From IMG/VR virus record IMGVR_UViG_3300022178_000001: DNA of 64,000 bases; one strand, given 5' to 3'. The notes beneath the pieces were generated by a model, which was not told the origin of the DNA, did not search any database, and was given only the letters and a program-made list of their open reading frames with translations. Source of the stretch: an uncultured virus (IMG/VR IMGVR_UViG_3300022178_000001) (lineage: Duplodnaviria > Heunggongvirae > Uroviricota > Caudoviricetes). Positions within the stretch are counted from its first letter, which is position 1; each line of letters starts with the position of its first letter. Below, one piece after another: positions 1-17,539 of the stretch. The translations under genes and the position numbers were made by a program.

Positions 1-84
1 TACCTAGAGTACGGGGTCGTAACAGTTTATTCAGATGAAGAAGGTAACTTTACCTTAGAAGCACCACTTAACCCTAACGACTAA
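1..84 (+). CDS. 3' end of hypothetical protein (partial)
   Basis: Open frame from base 1 (YLEYGVVTVYSDEEGNFTLEAPLNPND) ending at TAA 82-84, just before the RBS of the next gene. Confidence 0.5.
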   Translation, partial: YLEYGVVTVYSDEEGNFTLEAPLNPND

Positions 85-95
85 AGGAGAGAAGG

Positions 96-437
96 ATGAA
101 TTATAGTCAGGAGGAGTCTCAGGTACTCATCCAAGAGTATGAAAAAAATCCATCAAAAGAAACGGTCGAAGCACTTGCTGAGAAGTTTCGAAAAAGCACT
201 AAATCCGTAATCGGAAAACTAAGCAGAGAAGGAGTCTACAGACGAGAAGTTTATAGATCCAAAACTGGGGATGTGCCGATTACAAAAGTAGAAATCGTAA
301 CATCTATAGCAGATATGCTAATGTGCGAACCAGAACACCTACAAGGGCTTGATAAAGCCCCAAAATCCTCATTAAAAGCTCTTGAAGACGCCTTACGCGG
401 GGTCAGAGCGGGAAAAGAAATTATCTTCCAAGACTAG
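96..437 (+). CDS. T5 A2/D3-like small DNA-binding (HTH) protein
   Basis: GGAG RBS. N-terminal YSQEE...VEALAEKF..STKSVIGKLSREGVY and C-terminal LQGLDKAPKSSL resemble T5 A2/D3 proteins from memory. Confidence 0.6.
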   Translation: MNYSQEESQVLIQEYEKNPSKETVEALAEKFRKSTKSVIGKLSREGVYRREVYRSKTGDVPITKVEIVTSIADMLMCEPEHLQGLDKAPKSSLKALEDALRGVRAGKEIIFQD

Positions 438-441
438 GATG

Positions 442-466
442 AAAAGGGTAGGAACTAAACCTACCC
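442..466 (-). terminator. Intrinsic terminator for leftward transcript
   Basis: GGGTAGG(446-452)/CCTACCC(460-466) 7-bp stem; AAAA at 442-445 gives a U-tract on the minus strand. Confidence 0.55.
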
Positions 467-851
467 AAATTCATTCAAATCTAATAAAATCTGCAAAGAT
501 TACCCTCCCCATACGGAAAAGACCATAAAAACCCCGTCGCGAATTGGGCATGGTTGTGGGAATTAAAAAAGAAAATTGTAGTTAAGGCTTGATGTAATTG
601 ATGCGGGATCGTAACAATTATTGTGCTTTTACGGGATTAAGACGATTAGGTCAGAATCAGTACATAAGCACGAATTGTTAGATTGAATGTTGGGTTTTGA
701 CTAGCTCATCATATCTTGCATAAATCCCGTAGTAGAGTGACGCCTTATCTTTCAGTAGAACGGCGTCACACTTGTACGAAACAATGCATTACGATTTTGC
801 TAGTTTAGGTTTGTAAGAAAAGTGACTTACCTGATTAATCTTACGATTTAG
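442..851 (-). ncRNA. Candidate structured non-coding RNA (~410 nt; structured core 608-847)
   Basis: No ORF of 60 aa or more; nested inverted repeats; minus-strand promoter at 858-886 and terminator at 442-466. Confidence 0.5.
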
Positions 852-857
852 AAATAA

Positions 858-886
858 ATTATAACATACGTTTTGGCATAACACAA
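858..886 (-). promoter_or_regulatory. sigma70-type promoter (TTGTGT-17-TATAAT, extended -10)
   Basis: Minus strand reads AAAAATATTAC TTGTGT N17 TATAAT with TG upstream of -10; same A-tract context as the other phage promoters. Confidence 0.55.
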
Positions 887-978
887 GTAATATTTTTGAG
901 CAGGTATACGGTTATCCGAACTGGAAAGGAAAGAGGTTACTAAAAAATATTTAAACTGAGGAGAGGTAAAAAAATATC

Positions 979-1007
979 TTGACTTTTTTCGTTCTTTCGT
1001 GTATAAT
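979..1007 (+). promoter_or_regulatory. Strong sigma70 promoter (T5-type)
   Basis: TTGACT(979-984)-17 nt-TATAAT(1002-1007), upstream A-tract. Confidence 0.85.
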
Positions 1008-1160
1008 ATGTGGTAAGAAATCGAGAAGAGAACTCGTAGAACATCTCCGTGTAAGCACGCCACGTTAATCAGATGGATCTAATGCCGGGTGTAGGTTTTA
1101 TGGCTTTTTCCTCTTTCAAAAAAAGCTTTCTCAAAAACTTATTAGAAAAAGGAGACACCA

Positions 1161-1310
1161 ATGCCAGGAATCATTATTGCGATGATCTTAGTAGGAACTG
1201 TGCTGGTAAAAGATGGAAATCGAAAACTGGACGAAAAATGTGCCCAAGAAGTGTTAGATGGTATTGCTGAGTCACATCAGGAGTGTCGTCGCTACTATAT
1301 GAGTAAGTAA
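1161..1310 (+). CDS. Small hypothetical membrane-anchored protein (49 aa)
   Basis: AGGAGA RBS; MPGIIIAMILVGTVLVKDGNRKLDEKC...; below ORF-track cutoff. Confidence 0.65.
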   Translation: MPGIIIAMILVGTVLVKDGNRKLDEKCAQEVLDGIAESHQECRRYYMSK

Positions 1311-1311
1311 T

Positions 1312-1512
1312 ATGCCAAATTTTAAAGAAATAGAGCAGGATTTAACAGAATTAAACGGAGAAGGAAACCGGGAGCGGGGTCGCAACGGGGAAGAATTACC
1401 GTGGAGCTACGAAGAAAAACGAGACAGGAGGAAAGAAGCAGAAAAGGATTACATGGAAATTGTACTTCCTTTAGAAATTGCACCTACTGTGATTGGAATA
1501 TGTGTGGAATGA
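1312..1512 (+). CDS. Hypothetical protein
   Basis: 66-aa ORF packed between neighbours. Confidence 0.55.
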   Translation: MPNFKEIEQDLTELNGEGNRERGRNGEELPWSYEEKRDRRKEAEKDYMEIVLPLEIAPTVIGICVE

Positions 1513-1814
1513 AGGAACTTCTGCAAAAATTGGAAAGTGGAATAATTATACTTTGCTTTCGAAAGCTGGAAGGACCGGAGCGCAATATGGTCTGTACTAC
1601 CAATCCTCGATATATTCCTGGATCTCCAAAAGTTGGAAAACAATCCCCTGAGAGCAATACCTTTGGAATGTACGCACTCGATGTGTGTGCGTGGAGAGAT
1701 GTACTCAAAAGCACAATTCTACACTGGAGAGAAGCTCCTGTGACCGATGATGGCTATGTAAATACGAGTGTAAGTGGAGAGATCCCGACATGGTTAAAAG
1801 TAACAATCAACTAA
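1509..1814 (+). CDS. SH3-like beta-barrel (WYL_2-type) phage protein
   Basis: ATGA overlap start; FRKLEG.ERNMVCT...D..AWR pattern typical of phage WYL_2/SH3 proteins. Confidence 0.6.
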   Translation: MKELLQKLESGIIILCFRKLEGPERNMVCTTNPRYIPGSPKVGKQSPESNTFGMYALDVCAWRDVLKSTILHWREAPVTDDGYVNTSVSGEIPTWLKVTIN

Positions 1815-1839
1815 AACAAATTAATAGAAGGAGAACCCA

Positions 1840-2016
1840 ATGGTTCGCGAAATCGACAGCATCACAATTTACTTCGCAAATAACGGAGCCTACCTTGAAT
1901 ACTCAGACAACGGAGGAGACCGAGGGTATCAAAGCCATCGAGAAGTTTACCCCTCCGTCTTCGACGCCTGTACAGCAATAGAAAGGCTTTATGATGAAAC
2001 AAAGAACGAAGACTAA
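1840..2016 (+). CDS. Hypothetical protein (58 aa)
   Basis: AGGAGA RBS then MVREIDSITIYFANNGAYLEY...; a better fit than the listed 1790..1981 ORF. Confidence 0.6.
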   Translation: MVREIDSITIYFANNGAYLEYSDNGGDRGYQSHREVYPSVFDACTAIERLYDETKNED

Positions 2017-2257
2017 ACTTACACCGCTCGAAGTAACCGCAGCAAAAAGATCTTGGATGCCAGGAGTATCTGTGCGAGTGCATAGCGATCATCGAGGATC
2101 GGCAAAAGATTGGTGTAAAAACCTAGTGAGTAAGGAACTTCTGGACAAAGAAAACTATCATATGGTAATCTATACGAATGTATACGAAGATACCTTTCAC
2201 TTTCTTTCTCCTCTCGTCGCACAAAGCTTTGCAATGGAATTTAATGGAAAACTTTGA
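1991..2257 (+). CDS. Hypothetical phage protein
   Basis: 88-aa ORF in operon-like packing. Confidence 0.65.
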   Translation: MMKQRTKTKLTPLEVTAAKRSWMPGVSVRVHSDHRGSAKDWCKNLVSKELLDKENYHMVIYTNVYEDTFHFLSPLVAQSFAMEFNGKL

Positions 2258-2513
2258 TCAGTGGGAAACACATATGGAGGTGCGCCTTACAATAGTTGCG
2301 GAAGAGCTTATTGAAATGCACTATAATAAGAGAGTATCTGAGCTAAGTAAAGAAGAAATTCAAGAACTTGACAATTTTGCATTTATGCATAATAACTCCG
2401 TCCTGTGTTACGGCCTCCGCCGTAATATTAGAAGATGGGAAAAAGCTCATAAAACTACCGTAGATGGTGGGGAATATTTAAAAGAACTTAATCTACGGGA
2501 AGGAGAAGATTAA
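2244..2513 (+). CDS. Hypothetical protein
   Basis: ATG at 2244 (MENFDQWE) overlapping the upstream gene end. Confidence 0.6.
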   Translation: MENFDQWETHMEVRLTIVAEELIEMHYNKRVSELSKEEIQELDNFAFMHNNSVLCYGLRRNIRRWEKAHKTTVDGGEYLKELNLREGED

Positions 2514-2537
2514 AGACTATAGAGCCAAACAAAATTC

Positions 2538-2566
2538 TTGACATTTATACTAAATTCTTGTATAAT
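2538..2566 (+). promoter_or_regulatory. Strong sigma70 promoter
   Basis: TTGACA-17-TATAAT, perfect consensus. Confidence 0.9.
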
Positions 2567-2586
2567 ATCCTCTTACAAGAAAAGGA

Positions 2587-2826
2587 GTGGAAATGATTGT
2601 TCATATTATTTTAGACCCAGAGCAGATGGAAGTAGTATTTATGTCGCCTTCAAACGTAGCTTTTGGCAAGTATATTGCGAACTTAAGAGATGAAATGATT
2701 GCGGATGACATGATCGAAGAAGACGGTGACTTTAGTGACAATGATATCTTAGAGATGTATGGCAATTGGTACTACGATTGTTACAATACTGACGAAACAG
2801 ATGGCTGGGAGGAAGGCAACTGGTAA
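2587..2826 (+). CDS. Hypothetical highly acidic protein
   Basis: AGGAG RBS, first gene after promoter, D/E-rich. Confidence 0.7.
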   Translation: MEMIVHIILDPEQMEVVFMSPSNVAFGKYIANLRDEMIADDMIEEDGDFSDNDILEMYGNWYYDCYNTDETDGWEEGNW

Positions 2827-3062
2827 TGGAAGATAAGACTTTCGATGAGCTACTAGAGAGTGTGAAAGAGATGGACAATATGATTATGGATGCTAACGAA
2901 TTAAGGTATAGATTTGCAAAGTTAGCAGAAGACGAATTCAGTTATTCGTATGTGTTAAAAGCGCTACTAGCAATGATGACACAGGCCGAATTAAAGGAGT
3001 ATTATGACTATTTCAATCAACTTCATCCAGGAGTTTACGATGAAGACGGAAATCATATATGA
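2826..3062 (+). CDS. Hypothetical acidic protein
   Basis: TAATG coupling to previous gene. Confidence 0.7.
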   Translation: MEDKTFDELLESVKEMDNMIMDANELRYRFAKLAEDEFSYSYVLKALLAMMTQAELKEYYDYFNQLHPGVYDEDGNHI

Positions 3063-3307
3063 TATTAGTGGGAGAAACAATGAAAGATAGATTTGTACTA
3101 GAGCAGAACATAATGAACTGCTGGGAAATAATTGATGATCTTCAACTATTATCAGAGAATATCATAGATAGTGATAGGTATAATCTGAGCACAGAAGAAG
3201 AAGAACGTCTTACCAGAAAGCTTGATGGAATTAAAGAACTTTATGAGATGAGATTTGATAGAATGTGGGATACCTTTGAGGAGATGATAAAACATGGACA
3301 ACTATAG
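3059..3307 (+). CDS. Hypothetical protein
   Basis: ATGA coupling; alternative start at 3080 with GGAG RBS. Confidence 0.65.
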   Translation: MILVGETMKDRFVLEQNIMNCWEIIDDLQLLSENIIDSDRYNLSTEEEERLTRKLDGIKELYEMRFDRMWDTFEEMIKHGQL

Positions 3308-3418
3308 CTGGGAAGAAGAGCTGAAGTTTGCACGAAGAATGACGTGGCTAACAATTATTAACACGGTATGCTTATTCGCTTTTATGGGCGTCTTTGTATA
3401 TACGATGGCTGCAGGGTA
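3293..3418 (+). CDS. Small membrane protein
   Basis: GAGGAG RBS; MDNYSWEEELKFARRMTWLTIINTVCLFAFMGVFVYTMAAG. Confidence 0.5.
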
Positions 3419-3545
3419 GAAAAATGACGTACAAAGAAGAACTTTCTATAAAATTTTGGAAAGGATTTCTTATGGGGTACTTAACAGGAATATTATTATT
3501 AGTAGGAATATACGTTATATTTAGCTAAATCGGAGCGGGGTTACT

Positions 3546-3758
3546 ATGAGCTGGAGCTACAGAATAATTAAAAAAGAAAAAGGTGATGCGGAGTGGTACG
3601 GCATTCACGAAGTTTTCTATGATGACGATGGCAAGCCTGAAATGTGTACGGAAGATCCAATCACATTAGAAGCAGAGTCTATGGAAGATTTTGATTGGAT
3701 GTTAAGTCAATTTAAAATTGCAACCAATCAACCTTGGCTGAATTTTAACGACTTTTAG
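3546..3758 (+). CDS. Conserved hypothetical phage protein
   Basis: MSWSYRII...YGIHEVFYDDDGKP pattern is common in phages. Confidence 0.7.
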   Translation: MSWSYRIIKKEKGDAEWYGIHEVFYDDDGKPEMCTEDPITLEAESMEDFDWMLSQFKIATNQPWLNFNDF

Positions 3759-3759
3759 A

Positions 3760-3960
3760 ATGTATATAGTACATACCTTTTATAACAGAAAAACCGTGCA
3801 TACCTATAAGTATCTAACACTAGAGGAAGCTTTTGGTGATTATAATACTTATACTTTTGCAGGTCTGAAAGAAGGTACTCCGTATAAATGCAAAAAAGCT
3901 CTTTATGTTAAAATTGGGGACAAATACTTTCGATATGAAGAAAATTTTAAAGGGGGCTAA
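3760..3960 (+). CDS. Hypothetical protein
   Basis: 66-aa ORF abutting the previous gene. Confidence 0.55.
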   Translation: MYIVHTFYNRKTVHTYKYLTLEEAFGDYNTYTFAGLKEGTPYKCKKALYVKIGDKYFRYEENFKGG

Positions 3961-4118
3961 TATATGAAATGGCTAGGGTATGCTTTTTGGATATTCTATA
4001 TAATTATACAGGGCGGAAAAGTACTCGATACGACATCTCCAGAGATGGTTATTATAATAGTCGGAATGATGTTTGGATTGATTGTGTTCCCCCTAACTTT
4101 TTTAGTTGAGAGCGATTA

Positions 4119-4499
4119 GTGAGCATAGACGAAGATATTAAAGAGAAGTTTGAGGGAAGTACTATGAGCAAGGCAGGCCGTCTTGCCATGGAATTAACTG
4201 CGGAACGAAAGCGGTTGAAACAAGAAATGACAGAGCTTCAGATGGAAGTAGAGGATTTAAAGCCTACTACTCCTACGGGGACTATTGACAGTTATGTAAA
4301 ATGGGCTGCTACAATTTCTGCGGTTACTGGAATATTTCTACAGCAGGCAGACTTACTCATTGCAGGACAATCTCTGTATGCACTAAGTGCTCTATGTTGG
4401 ATTTATGTTGGGAGTATATGGAATGATAAAGCCATTATGATTGGCAGTGCTATATCAGGTACAGCCGTGTTACTAACATTAACGAAGTACTATTCTTAG
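4119..4499 (+). CDS. Hypothetical coiled-coil plus multi-TM membrane protein
   Basis: N-terminal heptad-like segment, three hydrophobic C-terminal segments. Confidence 0.65.
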   Translation: MSIDEDIKEKFEGSTMSKAGRLAMELTAERKRLKQEMTELQMEVEDLKPTTPTGTIDSYVKWAATISAVTGIFLQQADLLIAGQSLYALSALCWIYVGSIWNDKAIMIGSAISGTAVLLTLTKYYS

Positions 4500-4508
4500 G
4501 TATTGGAA

Positions 4509-4585
4509 GGGCTTTTAGCTCAGATGGTTAGAGCATCCGACTCATAATCGGCAGGTCCAAGGTTCAAATCCTTGAAGGCCCACCA
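4509..4585 (+). tRNA. tRNA with CAT anticodon (probably tRNA-Ile2; elongator Met possible)
   Basis: GGGCTTT/AAGGCCC acceptor stem, D-arm TAGCTCAGATGGTTAGAGC, anticodon arm CCGA-CTCATAA-TCGG, GGTTCAAATCC T-arm, encoded CCA. Confidence 0.93.
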
Positions 4586-4586
4586 C

Positions 4587-4901
4587 CTATGGTACTCCAT
4601 CCAAAATAGTAATATTTGCGTCCGACCCAAGTATTGTTAATTCTACCTTATAGCTAGGAACTACTACTTGCACATCAAACGTATCAACCAAGATACTATC
4701 AACACTATAAGAAGACGGGGCAGTAGATCGTACTGATACACTGGCTTCAATATTCGTAGGGTTTGCAGTTACAATTGCAGAGTACGTCCCTGCAGTTGTA
4801 ATCTCGATATCTTGTGCAGAGTAATATTTATCAAAAATACCCCCTCTCCAACCACGAGTTGCAAGGGATATTCTCCTACCAATGCCAGTATGGCTACTCA
4901 T
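4587..4901 (-). CDS. Hypothetical protein (accessory structural module)
   Basis: 104 aa, TAATG-coupled to the upstream gene; beta-strand-rich. Confidence 0.7.
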   Translation of the reverse strand: MSSHTGIGRRISLATRGWRGGIFDKYYSAQDIEITTAGTYSAIVTANPTNIEASVSVRSTAPSSYSVDSILVDTFDVQVVVPSYKVELTILGSDANITILDGVP

Positions 4902-5518
4902 TACTCTTCTCTTGAAACAATAGTAACTTCGTTACTAGGATTAGTAATATTCATTTTCAGAGCAGTACCTGTAGTAATACTCTCATCAGTAATAATTTGA
5001 GGATTATCTTTATCAAGCCCGAGAGACCTCCAAACTTCAAGAAGGCGGGTTTCCGTTTTCACGCCCCCTGCAATAGAAACGGTTGGGAGAGAGGATCGAG
5101 TTAATGCAATAGTTACTCCGCTCTGAGGATTTACAGGATTGCCTCCCTCTTCCCGAGTATAAATATTACCTACAATATCAAGAATATAACCAGAAAGGTT
5201 TAAATCAGCAGGAATCCAAGGCTGTATTCTCCATCCGTTTTCAAGAAAGTAAGAATCTCCCAAAGACGTAGTTTCGGTAATAGGATCTCCCCCAGTGGTA
5301 GTGATAGCTTCGTACCACTGAGAGTTTTTCCTTTGAAGCTTCCACTCTTTCCAATTACTATAGATATCGAGTTTTACATCGATAGATCCCTCGCCAGGAT
5401 TAACTCGAATAAGCCTGTTCTCTCCATCAAATGTAACCTTCATACCCCCTGGAGTATCAGGCAAGTTTCGAGGAGCCCAATAGGACCATTCTCCGTAATT
5501 GAAAATTATGCTCGGCAT
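4901..5518 (-). CDS. Putative virion structural protein
   Basis: Start MPSIIFNYGEW at 5518; FDGENRLI..DIYSNWKEW..GDPITE..YFLENGW is similar to a domain of the 8929..11148 protein. Confidence 0.7.
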   Translation of the reverse strand: MPSIIFNYGEWSYWAPRNLPDTPGGMKVTFDGENRLIRVNPGEGSIDVKLDIYSNWKEWKLQRKNSQWYEAITTTGGDPITETTSLGDSYFLENGWRIQPWIPADLNLSGYILDIVGNIYTREEGGNPVNPQSGVTIALTRSSLPTVSIAGGVKTETRLLEVWRSLGLDKDNPQIITDESITTGTALKMNITNPSNEVTIVSREE

Positions 5519-5519
5519 T

Positions 5520-8270
5520 TTACTGTTCTCTTTCCTTCCACTGAAGATTGATTCGAATATTATGTTCTTCATCTTCTACAGGACGCTTGATAGGATTCCA
5601 CATGAAGGTCCACGCTGCTTGAGGCGGAGGAGTACCAATGATTAGACTACCTGTACCTTGAGTACCACTACCTTGAACTGCATTTAGTACGGTATTATAG
5701 TCTAATGGGTAAGAGTTAGCTGAAGTAGTAAATACATCTAATGAAAACACATGATGATGGTAGCTAGTAGCTGTACCTGCAGTCTCTTGACCAGCAACTA
5801 CATCTGTAGCATAGGTAAAATTATGATCGTCTACTACAGTAACTGCTACTACTTCATATAAAGTATAAGTACCGGTAATCCCAGGAAAAGGAGCTACAAG
5901 AACAATTTCAGTATCAGTAATTGTAGAAATTTGTCCGTGCCTATCATCAACTTCGATAAAATCCCCCGGAGTTAATCCAGTTGCAGTAAACCCTATTCCT
6001 GTAATAGTAGCACTTCCATTAGTAACTACAGCATTTGCGACACTAGCAGTATTGAAACTAGTAGTACCTGAAATCCTTACCTTATCATTACTAGTAAAAT
6101 GGTGTTGCCACGAGCGAACAGAGGCAGTGCCTCCGGCAGCAACAATAGTATCGATAGAGCGTACTCTTTCTATACAGAACGAGTCTCCTGCTACAACCGA
6201 ATCAATTGTAGTAGACTGTCTATCCCCTACTAAGAAATAATCAGTACTAGTACCTCTATAACCTAGCTCCAAGATTCTAACACGTTCATTAATTGCAGCT
6301 CCGGACTTAAAGATAATATGATCATTTTGATGGCCGTGATGTTCCCCAGTATAATTAGAACTTAATTCTCGAGTAGCCCTATCGTCTTCAAGCAGCTCAA
6401 TAGTAGTATATAGTTGAGCTTCATCTCTATCCTGCAAAGCCATATTATAGGTATTACCATTTAAAAACGTTAAACCCGGCTCCGTAACTCCTGAGACTGT
6501 AATAGGTAGACGATCTTCAAAGTAATGAACATTAGTTTGAAAAATAGGGTTATTTATTACTTTAATTGTAACTGCAGTTCCTGTACCATAAGGATTATCG
6601 TCCCCCACAATAGATAATAGCTCTTGAGATCTAACAGAAGTACTAGCCTCTGAGTTTACTCGCTCTGTACCATACTGAATTGTATTAAATAGTTCAGTAA
6701 AGTTTAAATCTGTAGGGCCTTTTATAGGTCTTCTAAATATTTCTGGTCCGTGCCCTTCATGACGCGCATCCTTGTCGATTTCAGTAGTAGCGTACCCAAC
6801 TGGTTTATAGTTTTCTCCCCTCAGTAGACACTTCCGGAATATTCTAATTTCTCCACGAACATCGTCCCCATTTGCATCATAAGCATCAATAGTTAAATAC
6901 TTAGGTAAATATAAAGAATGATTATCAATACCGTTAATTTGTGCGACTGGTCTCATAGAAAATAAATAATGAGTAGAGTTATCGACAGAGTCTGTTGTTA
7001 CGGTAAAGCTTTCATCCAGGCTTCTAAAAGCACCTTCTTCTAAAATATTAGTATTACCCGTACCTTCGGAGAAGACCCCCGCACCATACGCAAATATAGA
7101 TTTTTCTCCTGTAGCTAAAGTACCGTCCCAAACATTGGTAGCCCAGCAAATAGGCAGATTAGGATTACCAGTAGCATTATGAAGCCAGGAGCCAGCCGCT
7201 CCCCCGTTTCCCATATCCATCTCATGACATACAACTCGTTGGCCTTCATAATACACACCCCATCTAATTCGTCCACCTCCTAAATACTGATAATCAATCC
7301 AATATTGGTTAGACCTATTAACTAGTATTTCCATGCCGGAAGGATTCGAACCACCCCCGTTACCTGACAGATTATCTTTATTCCACATAGCTTGCGGAAT
7401 AATACTATCTGTTTTTATACCTCCAAAAGTTTTACGATGAACAAGGTATAAACCGTTTCCTTTCCCATCTCCACCATTAGTGAGATCGCGTCCAAGCTGA
7501 AAGAAAAAGCCGTCGGCACCTTCAAACATACCCCATCTACGAATACACCCATCAACGCCTGTGTCTCCTATTCTAGTCGCCATAACCACTAACTGATTAG
7601 CACCAGGAATGTAAGGGTGGTAAAGATTACTAGTATGAGTGGACTTTGATCCAGTAATATCTTGAACTTTAACTTCTACTGCTTGATATGCTGGAATATA
7701 TTCAACAGTTCCCCCATTACCTAAACTATTTGAAAATTGGTCTAATAAAGCATTTTTGGTGAATAAATACTGAGCAACTAACTGTTTATTTGAAGTACGA
7801 AGCTCTCCATATTGAGTTAACTCAGGCGCGCCTTCTTGGAAGGTAACCTGCCCTGAGCCAAACCTATCTACGTTCCACCCAAACTCTGGATTATCATATC
7901 CCATAATGTTTTGGGCGGGTATATAAATATCTTCCGCAGGTCCATTAACGTAAGCTATAATTTGTCCGTCTATACCACCAAATCTTATTTCCTGATTATC
8001 CTCAGGAGAATAGCCTAAGTGTTTTGCGGTAGAATTATAGTGTACAGAAAGCACCCCTGTAGTAGACGTTTCTTGTTTTATTCCATGCACATGGAACATA
8101 AAGTCACTGTTACTATCAAGCACAGCCCCCGTTAGTTGGTACATAGAACCGACTTGCCAAATATGCGTTAATTCTTTGTTATCATACCTAATTTCAGCAG
8201 TGTGAATCATGTATACACGATCACCTGTACTTTCCGGAGGTATTCTAGTATATTTGCGTTCCCCTGCCAT
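5520..8270 (-). CDS. Large fibre/appendage-like protein with lectin/jelly-roll-like domain
   Basis: 916 aa; GGAG RBS; WIDYQYLGGGRIRWG motif recurs in phage structural proteins; G/T/S-rich beta C-terminal part. Confidence 0.7.
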   Translation of the reverse strand: MAGERKYTRIPPESTGDRVYMIHTAEIRYDNKELTHIWQVGSMYQLTGAVLDSNSDFMFHVHGIKQETSTTGVLSVHYNSTAKHLGYSPEDNQEIRFGGIDGQIIAYVNGPAEDIYIPAQNIMGYDNPEFGWNVDRFGSGQVTFQEGAPELTQYGELRTSNKQLVAQYLFTKNALLDQFSNSLGNGGTVEYIPAYQAVEVKVQDITGSKSTHTSNLYHPYIPGANQLVVMATRIGDTGVDGCIRRWGMFEGADGFFFQLGRDLTNGGDGKGNGLYLVHRKTFGGIKTDSIIPQAMWNKDNLSGNGGGSNPSGMEILVNRSNQYWIDYQYLGGGRIRWGVYYEGQRVVCHEMDMGNGGAAGSWLHNATGNPNLPICWATNVWDGTLATGEKSIFAYGAGVFSEGTGNTNILEEGAFRSLDESFTVTTDSVDNSTHYLFSMRPVAQINGIDNHSLYLPKYLTIDAYDANGDDVRGEIRIFRKCLLRGENYKPVGYATTEIDKDARHEGHGPEIFRRPIKGPTDLNFTELFNTIQYGTERVNSEASTSVRSQELLSIVGDDNPYGTGTAVTIKVINNPIFQTNVHYFEDRLPITVSGVTEPGLTFLNGNTYNMALQDRDEAQLYTTIELLEDDRATRELSSNYTGEHHGHQNDHIIFKSGAAINERVRILELGYRGTSTDYFLVGDRQSTTIDSVVAGDSFCIERVRSIDTIVAAGGTASVRSWQHHFTSNDKVRISGTTSFNTASVANAVVTNGSATITGIGFTATGLTPGDFIEVDDRHGQISTITDTEIVLVAPFPGITGTYTLYEVVAVTVVDDHNFTYATDVVAGQETAGTATSYHHHVFSLDVFTTSANSYPLDYNTVLNAVQGSGTQGTGSLIIGTPPPQAAWTFMWNPIKRPVEDEEHNIRINLQWKEREQ

Positions 8271-8928: not shown

Positions 8929-11148
8929 TTAGACAGTACCTTCGTCGTAGTTACGTTCAAGAGCCGCAATAAGTGAAACGATGTTTGACTTAGAACGGTT
9001 AATTGTACCAGCAGATGATACGTACTGAGCTTCATTCAATCCAAGTGCCACAACGATAATTGGAGCAGGAGTAGAAGCAGAACCTGCCCCACGCTGAACG
9101 TTACCATCATAGTCATATGAGAAGGTAGCAGAAGCACGCTTAGTTGGCCAAGAAGGGTTTACTAAGCCTGAGATAGGAGTACTATCCTTGTCTTGTACAA
9201 TTACAGCCAGTGGCGTATTGTAGTTTTTTCCTTCTGGAGAAGTAGCAGCCAAATCATTTTCGAAGAATACGAAGAACTTAGCAAACTCATCATCCTGCAA
9301 CGTAGAGCCAAAGTTGACGTTAAGCGTTGCTAAGAAGTTGAATAATCGAGTTCCGTTCTGAGCATCAACGAATTCAATAGCGTTAGTATCTGCTTCCGCA
9401 AAACTATCGATATATACACCTGATGCGGTTACAAGAGTGTCCCCAACAAATCGGAGTAAGCTATCCCCTGTTTTACCAACAACAGTACCAGTACCATCGG
9501 CATCGATATCGCTATTTTGACGTAAGAAGTACTGTACTTTTTCATAGATATCTACAGTAGTATTTACACCACCAGCGCCTTCACCAGCAACGTTAGTATC
9601 CCCATCAATGATTACAGTAAAGGGATAGTTAGTGCCCGCAATTTCACGTGAGCCTGCGAATACTTCCCAGTTAGTAGGATCACTTGGAGGAGCAGTAGCA
9701 GTATTGACACCAGTCTTATTGATGTACCACTCACCTGCTTCTTGAATAACATCACCAATTGCATAGTCGCCAGCCCCAGTAGTATGTGTAGCGCCTGAGA
9801 TCTTATCGTTAGTAACAAGATCACCGTTAGCGTCACGAACATAAGTGATAGTTGTAAGATCATAAGAAGGACGAACAGCAGAACCACCGGTATCAGTACT
9901 GCTATTAGCAGTTGCTACTGTAGGGGTCATAGTAAAGGTTGTATCACTAGGAATCGACAGAATTGCCGTAGTAGTTTCGTTGAAATCAGTCTCAGAAGTA
10001 AAACCAGTAATAGTCAAAACTTCCCCAATAGCTAAGCCGTGAGCACTAGGAGTAGTATAAGTATGGATAGTACCGTCAGAAGAAGCACTAACACTAACAC
10101 CACCAGAAAGGAAGCCTTCGAGATGAGGTACCTTCAAGTCTGCCTGAGACGTAAGAGGGAATCGATATGCTTGATACGTTACTGAGGATACACCGATATC
10201 ACTGAAGCGTGAAGTACCGTATGTAGACTGCCACTCACGAACAAACAACTTCAGAATATTAGTTGCACCTGTTTGATCCCGATAATCCGCTCCACCATTT
10301 TCGTACATTTGAACTGCCTGATTAACTGCACCAAACTGTTTAAAGTTAAAAGTATTGGTAGTAGAAGTTTCATCTTGTACTTGCTGATAATATACTTGGT
10401 CAGTTGCCCCAAGAATACCAAGAGAGATAATAGCAGCCCATTCTTCTTGAATGACGTTAGACGTATCTTTAACAGACCAACCACCATCACGAATTAATTC
10501 AATAGTAGTGGCACTAACAGTACCAGAAGTTTCAACTTTATCCCAGTTCCAGCCGTTGATCATTTCGAACTGCTCGTCCGTAATTGGACCCATTGGGAAA
10601 GGGAATTTAATCAAAAGTGCGTCAGACTGCCAAGCATCTTTGAGAGATGAGTAGATAGCTTTCAAAGAAGCCCCATCATCGCCTAAGTTACCTTGAACAA
10701 CCAAACCAATTTTCTTGAGGTCCCAATCAATAATAATTTCGTCAGCAGTAATAGCCGCAGAAATATTGTCCGTACCAGTAGTTAAGTCAAAATTGGTGCC
10801 TGCTTGAGAAGCCCCGCCGGTTACAGCAGATTGGGTAAGAGTTGCAGCAGCAGCAGTATTTGCCCCACCAACTGTAGTTACTGTAAAACCAGTAACAGCT
10901 CCGGTGCTTACAGAAGTAACAGTTACTTTAGAACCATCAGATAATTCAATTACATTATCTACGACATACCCCGAACCAGCAGTAAAAGTTCCGTTGTTGC
11001 CTACGTTATCGTAGTCAGCAGCGGCTGTTTGTCCATTAATAATATCACCACCAATACTGGATGCGATAGGAGTGGATACTGTCGGTACGTGTACTGACAA
11101 TTGATCCGGATCCTTCTGGACGTTAGAAGTTTGAAAGAAATTAGCCAT
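8929..11148 (-). CDS. Large structural-like protein (likely abundant)
   Basis: 739 aa, T/G/S/D-rich, GGAG RBS, followed by a terminator as seen for high-copy virion proteins. Confidence 0.75.
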   Translation of the reverse strand: MANFFQTSNVQKDPDQLSVHVPTVSTPIASSIGGDIINGQTAAADYDNVGNNGTFTAGSGYVVDNVIELSDGSKVTVTSVSTGAVTGFTVTTVGGANTAAAATLTQSAVTGGASQAGTNFDLTTGTDNISAAITADEIIIDWDLKKIGLVVQGNLGDDGASLKAIYSSLKDAWQSDALLIKFPFPMGPITDEQFEMINGWNWDKVETSGTVSATTIELIRDGGWSVKDTSNVIQEEWAAIISLGILGATDQVYYQQVQDETSTTNTFNFKQFGAVNQAVQMYENGGADYRDQTGATNILKLFVREWQSTYGTSRFSDIGVSSVTYQAYRFPLTSQADLKVPHLEGFLSGGVSVSASSDGTIHTYTTPSAHGLAIGEVLTITGFTSETDFNETTTAILSIPSDTTFTMTPTVATANSSTDTGGSAVRPSYDLTTITYVRDANGDLVTNDKISGATHTTGAGDYAIGDVIQEAGEWYINKTGVNTATAPPSDPTNWEVFAGSREIAGTNYPFTVIIDGDTNVAGEGAGGVNTTVDIYEKVQYFLRQNSDIDADGTGTVVGKTGDSLLRFVGDTLVTASGVYIDSFAEADTNAIEFVDAQNGTRLFNFLATLNVNFGSTLQDDEFAKFFVFFENDLAATSPEGKNYNTPLAVIVQDKDSTPISGLVNPSWPTKRASATFSYDYDGNVQRGAGSASTPAPIIVVALGLNEAQYVSSAGTINRSKSNIVSLIAALERNYDEGTV

Positions 11149-16936: not shown

Positions 16937-17539
16937 ATGGCTAATATAGCGAACAAATTTGTCGGTCTTCCGATTGAGCAGTTGATTACTGCCCCAATTA
17001 TCGGCATGGCAAAGGGTCAAGCACAACTTAACGATGTTACTTGGCAATACATTCAAGAAGTAGCATTTACAAAAGACGAAAAAACAGGCAAGACAGTAGC
17101 ACGTTCTCTCGATGTAGAGATGAACCGAGTTATGACAGATGGCGACACTGGGGAGCAATCAGTACAAACTTTGTACAGTAAAGTTCCAATGTTACCTTTG
17201 GTACCTCTGCCCTCCCTTGCAATCACATCAGCAGATATTAGTTTCATGATGGAAGTGCAAACTTCTAGTCAAGATACTAGTTCGGTTGATACAGAAAGTG
17301 AGATAAAAGCGTCTATTTCTGGCGGCTTCTGGGGAGCGAAGTATAAAGCTTCTATCTCTGGTAAAGTATCCACCAGTAAAGAAAGTATTCGAAAAACTGA
17401 TAATACTGCAAAGTATGAAGTAGCCGTGCACGCGGAACAACTACCCCCTACTGAAGGTATGTTAAAATTATCTGATTACTTGACACAAATGCTTGAACCT
17501 TCTTTAATTCCACTGACGCAAGACCCTAACGGCGGCTAA
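16937..17539 (+). CDS. DUF2589 family protein
   Basis: LPIEQLITAPI...AQL...IQEVAF...VPMLPLVPLPSLAI..ADISF.MEV; ..PEG..KL.D.L. Confidence 0.85.
   Translation: MANIANKFVGLPIEQLITAPIIGMAKGQAQLNDVTWQYIQEVAFTKDEKTGKTVARSLDVEMNRVMTDGDTGEQSVQTLYSKVPMLPLVPLPSLAITSADISFMMEVQTSSQDTSSVDTESEIKASISGGFWGAKYKASISGKVSTSKESIRKTDNTAKYEVAVHAEQLPPTEGMLKLSDYLTQMLEPSLIPLTQDPNGG

What the first reader, a model, noticed from the sequence alone, without database searches (positions are those of the whole stretch)
442..886. Dedicated ORF-free transcription unit folding into a long rod-like RNA (candidate novel phage ncRNA, 6S-like architecture)
Seen: a leftward promoter (858-886) and a leftward terminator (442-466) bracket ~410 nt with no ORF of 60 aa or more. 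Inside are nested complementary pairs: GTGACGCC 737-744/GGCGTCAC 762-769, TGCAT 717-721/ATGCA 784-788, ACTAGC 700-705/GCTAGT 799-804, TAAG-CAC 665-671/GTG-A-CTTA 822-829, AATCAG 655-660/CTGATT 831-836 and ATCGTAA 608-614/TTACGAT 841-847. An unpaired central bubble (about 672-699 vs 805-821) and a crossing 9-bp pair TACGGGATT 630-638/AATCCCGTA 723-731 (pseudoknot or alternative fold) are also present. Inference: closing stem, central bubble and apical stem over ~200 nt is the architecture of 6S RNA, which decoys sigma70-RNAP. A phage relying on sigma70 promoters could use such an RNA. A replication-origin RNA is an alternative.
Basis: partly seen in the sequence, partly recalled or inferred. 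Interest (0 to 1): 0.8.

Follow-up and report, generated by a model that had tools for sequence, protein, structure and literature searches.

The report
New structured RNA gene in marine T5-like phages
The gene-free stretch most likely holds a gene for a folded RNA of about 320 bases with its own promoter, conserved in uncultured marine relatives of phage T5, matching no known RNA family, not built like 6S RNA, and of unknown function.

Summary
Window 438-1160 has no conserved ORF. It carries a leftward promoter (886-858), a leftward terminator (466-446) and strong folding (z -7.3 for 600-856 on the minus strand).

Comparison shows what it is. The same element lies in all 29 related viral loci and in 45 further promoter-pattern loci, giving 40 distinct sequences in 6 clades. 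The promoter is conserved. It is followed by a 5' block, an unbranched hairpin H1 of about 105 nt (window 804-700), conserved unpaired linkers, 3' hairpins and a conserved tail with a U-run (to about 527).

H1 covaries strongly: 91% of cells pair against 57% in shuffles, and 31 of 31 pairs show changes on both sides. The structure is strand-specific: the minus strand is more stable in 37 of 40, and G-U outnumbers A-C 66 to 6. This fits an RNA read from the conserved promoter.

The 6S-like rod is not supported as drawn. Short long-range helices do close around H1. No homologue was found in T5 or Vibrio phage phi 3. No expression data could be obtained.

Verdict: a real, new phage ncRNA family. 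Its function is unknown; a protein-binding RNA is my inference.

The parts
858..886 (-). Promoter of the RNA. The -35-like hexamer TTGTGT is at 886-881, the spacer is 17 nt, TG is at 866-865, and the -10 TATAAT is at 863-858. An upstream A-tract lies at about 893-897. The start of transcription is inferred near 851.
   Evidence: Read. The same arrangement (GGCAAAAATA .. TTKnnn .. TATGCCAAAA .. GTGGTA(A/T/C)AAT) recurs in the relatives. One search did not list it because the -35 matches only 3 of 6.
805..851 (-). 5' domain of the RNA. It is a conserved sequence block with a small local hairpin and the unpaired motif (U)UCUUAC(U/A)AAC just before H1.
   Evidence: Alignment A2 and the per-clade consensus folds. 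Mean z is -1.2 on the minus strand against -0.2 on the plus strand, and the minus-strand z is lower in 36 of 40.
700..804 (-). H1, a long unbranched imperfect hairpin (105 nt, 38 pairs in the window). Its sequence varies among relatives but its structure is conserved.
   Evidence: Folds. It is unbranched in 40 of 40 sequences, with a median of 105 nt and 37 pairs. Covariation: 91.0% of cells pair against 56.6% in shuffles, 31 of 31 pairs change on both sides, and slid controls give 37-48%. Strand: the minus strand is more stable in 37 of 40 and in all 6 clades on average. G-U/U-G cells number 66 against 6 A-C/C-A.
812..815 (-). 5' half of the short long-range helix Pc (RNA UACA). It pairs with 661-664 (RNA UGUA).
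   Evidence: Cognate partners are more stable than non-cognate ones (mean -3.27 against -1.82 kcal/mol). 0 of 2000 partner permutations reach the observed energy, over 27 distinct 5'/3' combinations.
661..664 (-). 3' half of the long-range helix Pc.
684..699 (-). Unpaired linker after H1. The family consensus is AAUCCCAcUCUAAU; the window reads CAAAACCCAACAUUCA.
   Evidence: Alignments A2 and A5.
606..683 (-). 3' hairpin domain (P3/P4). In most relatives a hairpin with a variable stem displays the conserved loop GAUAAUCAAAUAAC. The window and L003 have diverged here.
   Evidence: Fold. The loop motif is present in 34 of 36 sequences. In 30 of those 34 it lies inside a hairpin closed by at least 4 pairs, with 18 distinct closing-stem 7-mers. 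Mean z is -3.0 on the minus strand against -1.7 on the plus strand. Model R2 matches window 551-675 on the minus strand.
526..605 (-). Conserved 3' tail (family consensus ACUAAAAAUUCGUCUUAAUUUUGUGCAAUUCGCGA plus a U-run). In the window AAUUCGCGA is at 545-537 and the U-run at about 530-526. This is the likely but weak end of the conserved RNA.
   Evidence: Alignment A1 (TCGCGAATTGG invariant in 4 of 5) and the 3' regions of 35 sequences. A strict terminator scan finds a site in only 6 of 35.
442..466 (-). Strong intrinsic terminator for leftward transcription. It is a back-up or alternative 3' end, giving an RNA of about 410 nt. It is specific to the window and not conserved in the family.
979..1007 (+). 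Divergent strong early promoter (TTGACT-17-TATAAT) for the rightward small genes, back to back with the RNA promoter.
   Evidence: It is conserved in alignment A1.

Best explanation
Window about 851 to about 527 on the minus strand (possibly on to 442) is an independent gene for a structured non-coding RNA of about 320 nt. It belongs to a previously undescribed family confined, so far, to a lineage of uncultured marine T5-like phages.

Host sigma-70 RNA polymerase reads it from a conserved extended -10 promoter (886-858). That promoter stands back to back with the strong early promoter at 979-1007, so the RNA should be made early in infection.

The RNA folds into these parts:
- a conserved 5' block
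- a long rod-shaped hairpin H1 of about 105 nt, kept by compensatory changes while its sequence drifts
- short long-range helices that close the junction at its base
- 3' hairpins that display conserved loops
- a conserved tail

Shown here: conservation, covariation, strand specificity, absence of a conserved ORF, and the conserved promoter.

Inferred: that the RNA acts in trans as a folded molecule. I take its invariant unpaired motifs, held on variable helices, to bind a host or phage protein as a decoy or scaffold. Transcription itself was not observed.
For: Conservation: all 29 loci found through the neighbouring 113-aa protein have blastn similarity to window 438-1160. A promoter-derived pattern found 46 further viral loci, 45 of them real. 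The protein neighbour is only 52-84% identical, yet the non-coding DNA is conserved.

Promoter: it is conserved in sequence and in its position just upstream of the structure.

Structure:
- The window minus strand has z -7.3.
- H1 is present and unbranched in 40 of 40 sequences.
- All six clades keep H1 with compensatory pairs. The counts for the whole predicted fold are 16 of 34, 20 of 50, 8 of 36, 7 of 71, 7 of 67 and 17 of 49.
- On the model-based alignment 91.0% of 914 cells pair, against 56.6% in shuffles and 37-48% when slid. 31 of 31 pairs change on both sides. 0 of 500 shuffles reach any measure.

Strand:
- H1 is more stable on the minus strand in 37 of 40, with means of -3.4 to -7.5 kcal/mol in all six clades.
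- Composition-corrected z is -5.2 against -3.2 for H1 and -3.0 against -1.7 for the 3' hairpins.
- G-U cells number 66 against 6 A-C cells.

Long-range helix Pc: 0 of 2000 partner permutations reach the observed energy.

Non-coding: there is no conserved ORF. Frames differ in strand and place, and 4 of 35 sequences, the window among them, have none of 35 codons or more.
Against: - No transcript was seen.
- The 3' end is uncertain. A strict terminator scan finds a site in only 6 of 35 relatives.
- The covariation counts come from an alignment fitted to a model built on this strand, which leans towards the structure and towards G-U.
- The 40 sequences fall into 6 clades and are not independent.
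- Raw folding energy of the 3' part favours the plus strand in 35 of 38. This reverses only after correcting for composition.
- Nothing shows a protein partner. No RNA-linked protein was recognised nearby.
- The window's own 3' domain lacks the family's loop motif.
Confidence: 0.6

Rival explanations
1. It is a 6S-like decoy. The RNA would mimic an open promoter and sequester sigma-70 RNA polymerase, helping the phage shift transcription.
For: The most conserved unpaired bases flank the base of a long helix. Short long-range helices close around it, which loosely resembles stem, bubble, stem. The phage uses consensus sigma-70 promoters.
Against: - No match to any Rfam 6S model at E up to 10 in the window, nor at E up to 1 in ten relatives.
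- The supported closing helices are only 3-6 bp.
- H1 has no large internal bubble (fold).
- The RNA is at least about 320 nt and has an extra conserved 3' domain. 6S RNA is about 180-200 nt (recalled).
Confidence: 0.08
2. It is a replication-origin transcript. The conserved promoter would make a structured primer RNA, as with ColE1 RNA II or the R-loop origins of phage T4, that starts DNA synthesis near the conserved tail.
For: There is a conserved promoter, conserved non-coding DNA and a structured RNA with a conserved A/U-rich 3' tail. The comparison with ColE1 RNA II and T4 origins is recalled, not tested.
Against: - The element lies in the small-gene early region, about 17 kb from the replication module at 18-40 kb.
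- Cumulative GC skew does not turn here.
- There are no iterons or direct-repeat families longer than 10 nt.
- Davison's preprint, section 3.3.3, cites work placing T5 origins near the middle of the genome.
Confidence: 0.1
3. It is a trans-acting base-pairing small RNA. The conserved unpaired motifs would pair with host or phage mRNAs.
For: There are several invariant single-stranded stretches of 10-15 nt and a U-rich 3' end.
Against: - No complementary copies of five conserved motifs (at most 1 mismatch) were found elsewhere in the window or in 28 related loci of 4-8 kb.
- The RNA is large and elaborately folded for a typical base-pairing sRNA.
- The host is unknown, so host targets could not be searched.
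Confidence: 0.12
4. It is a DNA-level element rather than an RNA. It could be a counterpart of the T5 injection-stop or terminal-repeat-boundary region, or a single-strand DNA hairpin signal.
For: T5 has a conserved non-coding region of about 1.2 kb, full of inverted repeats, between its pre-early and early genes (annotated as iss at 9140-10149). Both strands of the window fold better than shuffles.
Against: - The strand asymmetry of the structure and the G-U against A-C bias point to one strand.
- A conserved promoter is aimed at that strand.
- There are no direct-repeat families as in T5.
- I saw no clear DnaA-box pairs when reading the sequence; no formal scan was run.
- Neither model matches T5.
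- The genes upstream are ordinary early-type genes (PNK-like, PPK2). No protein of T5 A1 size and no family match to A1, A2 or dmp appeared among them, but A1, A2 and dmp were not searched for directly.
- In T5 the genes beyond the region point the other way.
Confidence: 0.07

Closest known systems
6S RNA (Rfam RF00013 and related 6S families)
   Same: It is a stand-alone, highly structured RNA that is not translated and is made from a sigma-70 promoter. A long helix sits next to conserved unpaired bases.
   Different: There is no covariance-model match. There is no extended 5'/3' closing stem and no large central bubble. It is about 320 nt or more, against about 180-200 nt for 6S (recalled), and it has an extra 3' domain. 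Binding to RNA polymerase was not tested.
Large orphan structured RNAs linked with phages, such as GOLLD and ROOL
   Same: These are conserved, elaborately folded RNAs of unknown function that are carried by phages and known mainly from metagenomes. Their phage association is recalled. The names come from the listing and abstract start of 10.1101/2024.12.08.627333.
   Different: No Rfam match to them. This RNA is much smaller, is dominated by one long hairpin, and occurs in a different phage group.
T5 injection-stop / Repeat Region 3 (Davison, bioRxiv 10.1101/866236, section 3.3 read; T5 record NC_005859)
   Same: It is a conserved non-coding stretch with inverted repeats in the early part of a T5-type genome, better conserved than the neighbouring ORFs.
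   Different: The T5 region has many direct repeats, paired DnaA boxes and a nick site, and is thought to act as DNA. Here there is no repeat array, the hairpins are strand-specific and sit behind a promoter, and no similarity to T5 was found.
Structured primer RNAs of replication origins (ColE1 RNA II; T4 origin transcripts), recalled
   Same: A promoter is followed by a conserved folded RNA in non-coding DNA.
   Different: The element is far from the replication genes, the skew does not turn here, and there are no iterons. Priming could not be tested.

Membership tests
6S RNA | Match to the curated 6S covariance models | tested here: not met
   No 6S hit at gathering score in the whole window, none at E up to 10 in 380-1200, and none at E up to 1 in ten relatives.
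6S RNA | Rod closed by an extended stem between the 5' and 3' ends | tested here: not met
Only short helices have comparative support: 3-6 bp for Pc and 5-10 bp for the 5'-end pairing.
6S RNA | Large central bubble that mimics an open promoter | tested here: inconclusive
   H1 itself has only small internal loops. Conserved unpaired stretches flank its base, but they are asymmetric and include a small hairpin.
6S RNA | Binds the sigma-70 holoenzyme and templates a product RNA | not testable with these tools
   This needs biochemistry.
Any Rfam 15 family | Covariance-model match | tested here: not met
   The only match at gathering score in the window is tRNA at 4509-4582. The weak hits are unrelated eukaryotic or other families below threshold, and those in the relatives lie outside the element.
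Retron msr-msd RNA | Adjacent reverse transcriptase gene | tested here: not met
   No reverse transcriptase turned up among the window ORFs of 150 aa or more, the upstream G001 ORFs, or the small neighbours in the PHROGs and Pfam scans.
T5 injection-stop region (iss) | Arrays of direct and inverted repeats with paired DnaA boxes; similarity to the T5 region | tested here: not met
   No direct-repeat family longer than 10 nt. Models R1 and R2 find nothing in T5. DnaA boxes were looked for by eye only.
Bacterial sigma-70 transcription unit with intrinsic terminator | A -10/-35 promoter upstream and a hairpin with a U-run downstream on the same strand | tested here: met
   Promoter 886-858 with an extended -10. 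Terminator 466-446. The terminator is not conserved in the family.

The most novel reading that the evidence does not exclude
This may be the founding member of a new class of phage-encoded effector RNAs. It would be an abundant early RNA whose shape-conserved 100-nt double-stranded arm and invariant junction and loop motifs capture a host protein, such as RNA polymerase, a ribonuclease or an antiviral sensor, so as to take over or disarm the cell. Its architecture is unrelated to 6S or to any catalogued RNA.
Probability: 0.25. Interest if true: 0.8.

Novelty: categorically new. Interest (0 to 1): 0.62.

Why it matters
Phage non-coding RNAs with their own promoters and strong covariation are few, and almost none are known for T5-type phages.

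This one has three useful properties. It is conserved across at least six clades of uncultured marine phages. It is better conserved than its protein neighbours. It matches nothing in Rfam 15 and nothing in the literature searches made here.

It gives a concrete, testable RNA, with a defined promoter, helices and invariant motifs, for asking what an early phage RNA does to its host.

'New' here refers to the family and its architecture. Whether the mechanism is new is unknown.

Tried and rejected
- Rfam at gathering and at loose thresholds gave nothing relevant.
- blastn of window 1-3000 and tblastn of the 113-aa neighbour against 50,697 phage records gave no match.
- RNAalifold on the plain MAFFT alignments of all clades gave no structure, because the variable hairpin is misaligned. 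Per-clade alignments and a covariance model solved this.
- mafft-qinsi is not usable on the script machine.
- A pairing between the 5' end and the P4 loop was first tested against shuffled loops and showed no excess. The loop was mislocated in some clades. A cognate against non-cognate test then gave modest support.
- The crossing 9-bp pair 630-638/723-731 is not conserved.
- A generic closing duplex between the 5' 44 nt and the 3' domain is not better than shuffles per sequence (mean z -0.9, 0 of 36 below -2).
- A small conserved protein was rejected.
- Complementary target sites for five conserved motifs in neighbouring phage DNA: none found.
- A homologue in T5 or Vibrio phage phi 3: none. 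There was one weak R1 hit at E 1.4 in phi 3.
- In bacterial and archaeal genomes the pattern gave 36 matches. 35 had no R2 (3'-domain) match and are taken as chance; they were not searched with R1. One (L109) is a short, probably viral, contig in an archaeal bin.
- Earlier findings of this scan: nothing on record.

Full report
**Setting.** The window is part of an uncultured T5-like siphovirus.
- PHROGs finds a split NAD-dependent ligase, a D5-like regulator, SbcCD-like nuclease, PolA, primase, helicases, ribonucleotide reductase and T5-type tail genes.
- The nearest cultured phages are T5-like Vibrio and Aeromonas phages, with only about 45% identity in the DNA polymerase.
- The window's own assembly is not held. 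An IMG/VR fragment (G001) is identical over window 1-1400 and adds 6.8 kb upstream.
- Window 438-1160 is intergenic. It lies between a rightward 113-aa gene (96-437) and rightward small genes that start at 1161 behind a near-consensus promoter at 979-1007.

**The observation.**
- The leftward terminator 466-446 is a good one: 7 pairs, 5 of them G-C, followed by TTTTC.
- The leftward promoter 886-858 reads TTGTGT-17-TATAAT with TG two bases before the -10. The scan missed it only because the -35 matches 3 of 6.
- No ORF of 60 aa or more lies in the transcribed part.
- Folding exceeds dinucleotide shuffles. The minus strand 600-856 gives -70.6 kcal/mol and z -7.3, with 0 of 200 shuffles as good. 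For 442-856 the minus strand has z -5.1 and the plus strand z -4.0.
- The minimum-energy fold has two domains, a long hairpin 700-804 and a second hairpin region about 606-683. It is not one rod.

**Relatives.**
- The 113-aa neighbour found 29 viral loci at 52-100% protein identity. All 29 show nucleotide similarity to window 438-1160. The widest conservation falls on window about 803-967, which includes the leftward promoter.
- The promoter motif recurs with little change. It was found within 16 mismatches over 50 nt in 24 of 30 loci. It was read directly upstream of the model hits in four of the six loci where that search failed.
- A 22-letter degenerate pattern of the promoter found 46 more viral loci. 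One, L046, is a chance hit and matches neither model.
- After removing duplicates there are 40 distinct RNA-strand sequences. By similarity of the hairpin they fall into six clades.

**Architecture.** The alignments and the per-clade consensus folds show the following parts in order:
- a conserved 5' block with a small hairpin and the unpaired motif UUCUUACUAAC
- H1, unbranched in 40 of 40, with a median of 105 nt (range 87-117) and 37 pairs
- an unpaired linker, AAUCCCAcUCUAAU
- small hairpins, including P4, whose stem varies while its loop GAUAAUCAAAUAAC is conserved. The motif is present in 34 of 36 sequences. In 30 of those 34 it lies inside a hairpin closed by at least 4 pairs. The window and L003 have diverged here.
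- a conserved tail, ACUAAAAAUUCGUCUUAAUUUUGUGCAAUUCGCGA, followed by a U-run

A strict terminator scan finds a site in only 6 of 35 sequences. The family's 3' end is therefore uncertain. In the window the RNA may end weakly near 527 or at the strong terminator 466-446.

**Covariation.** Each clade keeps H1, and its predicted fold contains compensatory pairs: 16 of 34, 20 of 50, 8 of 36, 7 of 71, 7 of 67 and 17 of 49.

A covariance model built from clade A alone found the element in 44 of 45 sources, all but L046. It also gave one spurious weak hit elsewhere in the window.

On the resulting alignment, with 38 distinct rows, 31 pairs and 914 cells:
- 91.0% of cells pair, against 56.6% in shuffles and 37-48% when the partners are slid.
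- All 31 pairs show changes on both sides.
- 0 of 500 shuffles reach any of the five measures (repeated on the cleaned alignment).

Two caveats apply. The alignment is fitted to the model, and the sequences are related.

**Which strand.** Three tests agree on the minus strand.
- H1 is more stable on the window's minus strand in 37 of 40 sequences, by 5.2 kcal/mol on average. The mean favours it in all six clades.
- Raw energy of the 3' part favours the plus strand in 35 of 38. After correcting for composition with dinucleotide shuffles, the minus strand is the more structured everywhere that structure exists. For H1 z is -5.2 against -3.2, for the 3' hairpins -3.0 against -1.7, and for the 5' block -1.2 against -0.2. 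The tail shows no structure on either strand.
- In the H1 pair cells G-U/U-G number 66 and A-C/C-A number 6. This count leans on the fitted alignment.

Together with the promoter aimed at that strand, this argues for RNA rather than a symmetric DNA element.

**Not coding.** The frames in the 330-400 nt differ in strand and position between relatives. 4 of 35 sequences, the window included, have no ORF of 35 codons or more.

- On the 40-sequence alignment the three distal stems pair in 56.2% of cells, against 53.6% in shuffles.
- The crossing 9-bp pair is not conserved.
- A generic 5'/3' duplex is not better than shuffles.
- Two long-range pairings do have partner-specific support.
  - Pc, in the window UACA 815-812 with UGUA 664-661, changes in step among clades (UACU/AGUA, CACU/AGUG, UUACC/GGUAA, AAACU/AGUUU, UUACAA/UUGUAA). 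Cognate partners average -3.27 kcal/mol against -1.82 for non-cognate ones. 0 of 2000 permutations reach the observed energy.
- The extreme 5' end pairs with the P4 loop or arm. The observed mean is -4.66 kcal/mol against -4.06, and 4 of 1000 permutations reach it. The partner site shifts between clades.

So H1 stands on a junction closed by short helices, and the most conserved unpaired bases lie around it. This loosely recalls stem, bubble, stem, but it is not 6S:
- no 6S or other Rfam model matches
- the closing helices are a few pairs long
- H1 has no large bubble
- there is a conserved extra 3' domain

**Other known systems.**
- No reverse transcriptase or other RNA-linked protein was recognised in the window or upstream, so it is not a retron-type RNA.
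- Davison's preprint (10.1101/866236; abstract and section 3.3 read) and the record NC_005859 describe the T5 injection-stop region. That region has arrays of direct repeats, paired DnaA boxes and a nick, and the genes beyond it point leftward.
- Here there are no direct-repeat families longer than 10 nt, and neither model matches T5 or Vibrio phage phi 3.
- The pattern's 36 matches in 596 Gb of prokaryote genomes gave only one hit to the 3'-domain model R2. That hit is a 3.4-kb contig binned with an archaeon, which is probably viral.
- The literature searches found no description of such an RNA (listings and abstract starts only, apart from passages of 10.1101/2023.03.15.532788 read, where the anti-retron factor Rad turned out to be a protein).

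**Interpretation.** The best-supported reading is an independent early RNA gene of a new family. Conservation, covariation, strand specificity and the promoter are shown. Transcription, the ends of the RNA and its function are inferred.

The design is invariant unpaired motifs and loops displayed on helices whose sequence is free to drift. I take this to fit best an RNA that is recognised by shape and by short motifs, that is, a protein-binding decoy or scaffold. This is inference.

The rivals, each with the result that would refute it, are given in their own section:
- a 6S-like polymerase decoy
- an origin or primer transcript
- a base-pairing small RNA. No complementary sites were found in neighbouring phage DNA, and host targets cannot be searched because the host is unknown.
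- a DNA-level signal

No expression data could be obtained.

Noticed in passing
window 4509-4585 (+): There is a single tRNA-Met (CAT) gene about 3.6 kb to the right of the RNA, at the end of the rightward block of small early genes.
   Followed up: no
window 979-1007 and 2538-2566 (+): Two near-consensus sigma-70 promoters (11 of 12 and 12 of 12) drive the small early genes. The promoter consensus recurs in the related loci.
   Followed up: partly
window 96-437 (+): A 113-aa protein with no Pfam family and only a weak PHROG 'DNA binding protein' match (E 3e-4) sits next to the RNA in all 29 related loci. It has no relative in 50,697 phage records.
   Followed up: partly
window about 537-545 and the aligned place in relatives: The conserved 3' tail carries the palindrome UCGCGA. 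In L061 it is replaced by another palindrome, AUUCGAAU. In L003 and L033 it sits in or beside the loop of a terminator-like hairpin. This could allow loop-loop dimerisation, which was not tested.
   Followed up: no
L109 (contig of 3401 bases in a Poseidoniales archaeon bin), 356-480 (+): This contig carries the 3' domain of the same RNA (model R2, E 3e-17). It is probably a viral contig binned with an archaeal genome.
   Followed up: partly
window 16937-17536 and 17566-18042 (+): Two tandem paralogues of DUF2589 stand in front of the replication module.
   Followed up: no
L077 (G001 1-7300): 892-1362 and 2200-2823 (+): Upstream of the window the phage encodes a polynucleotide-kinase-like protein and a PPK2 polyphosphate kinase among small early genes. 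No protein of T5 A1 size was seen there.
   Followed up: partly
window 22183-23139 and 23228-23980 (+): The NAD-dependent DNA ligase is split into two adjacent genes, as PHROGs lists for T5-type phages.
   Followed up: no
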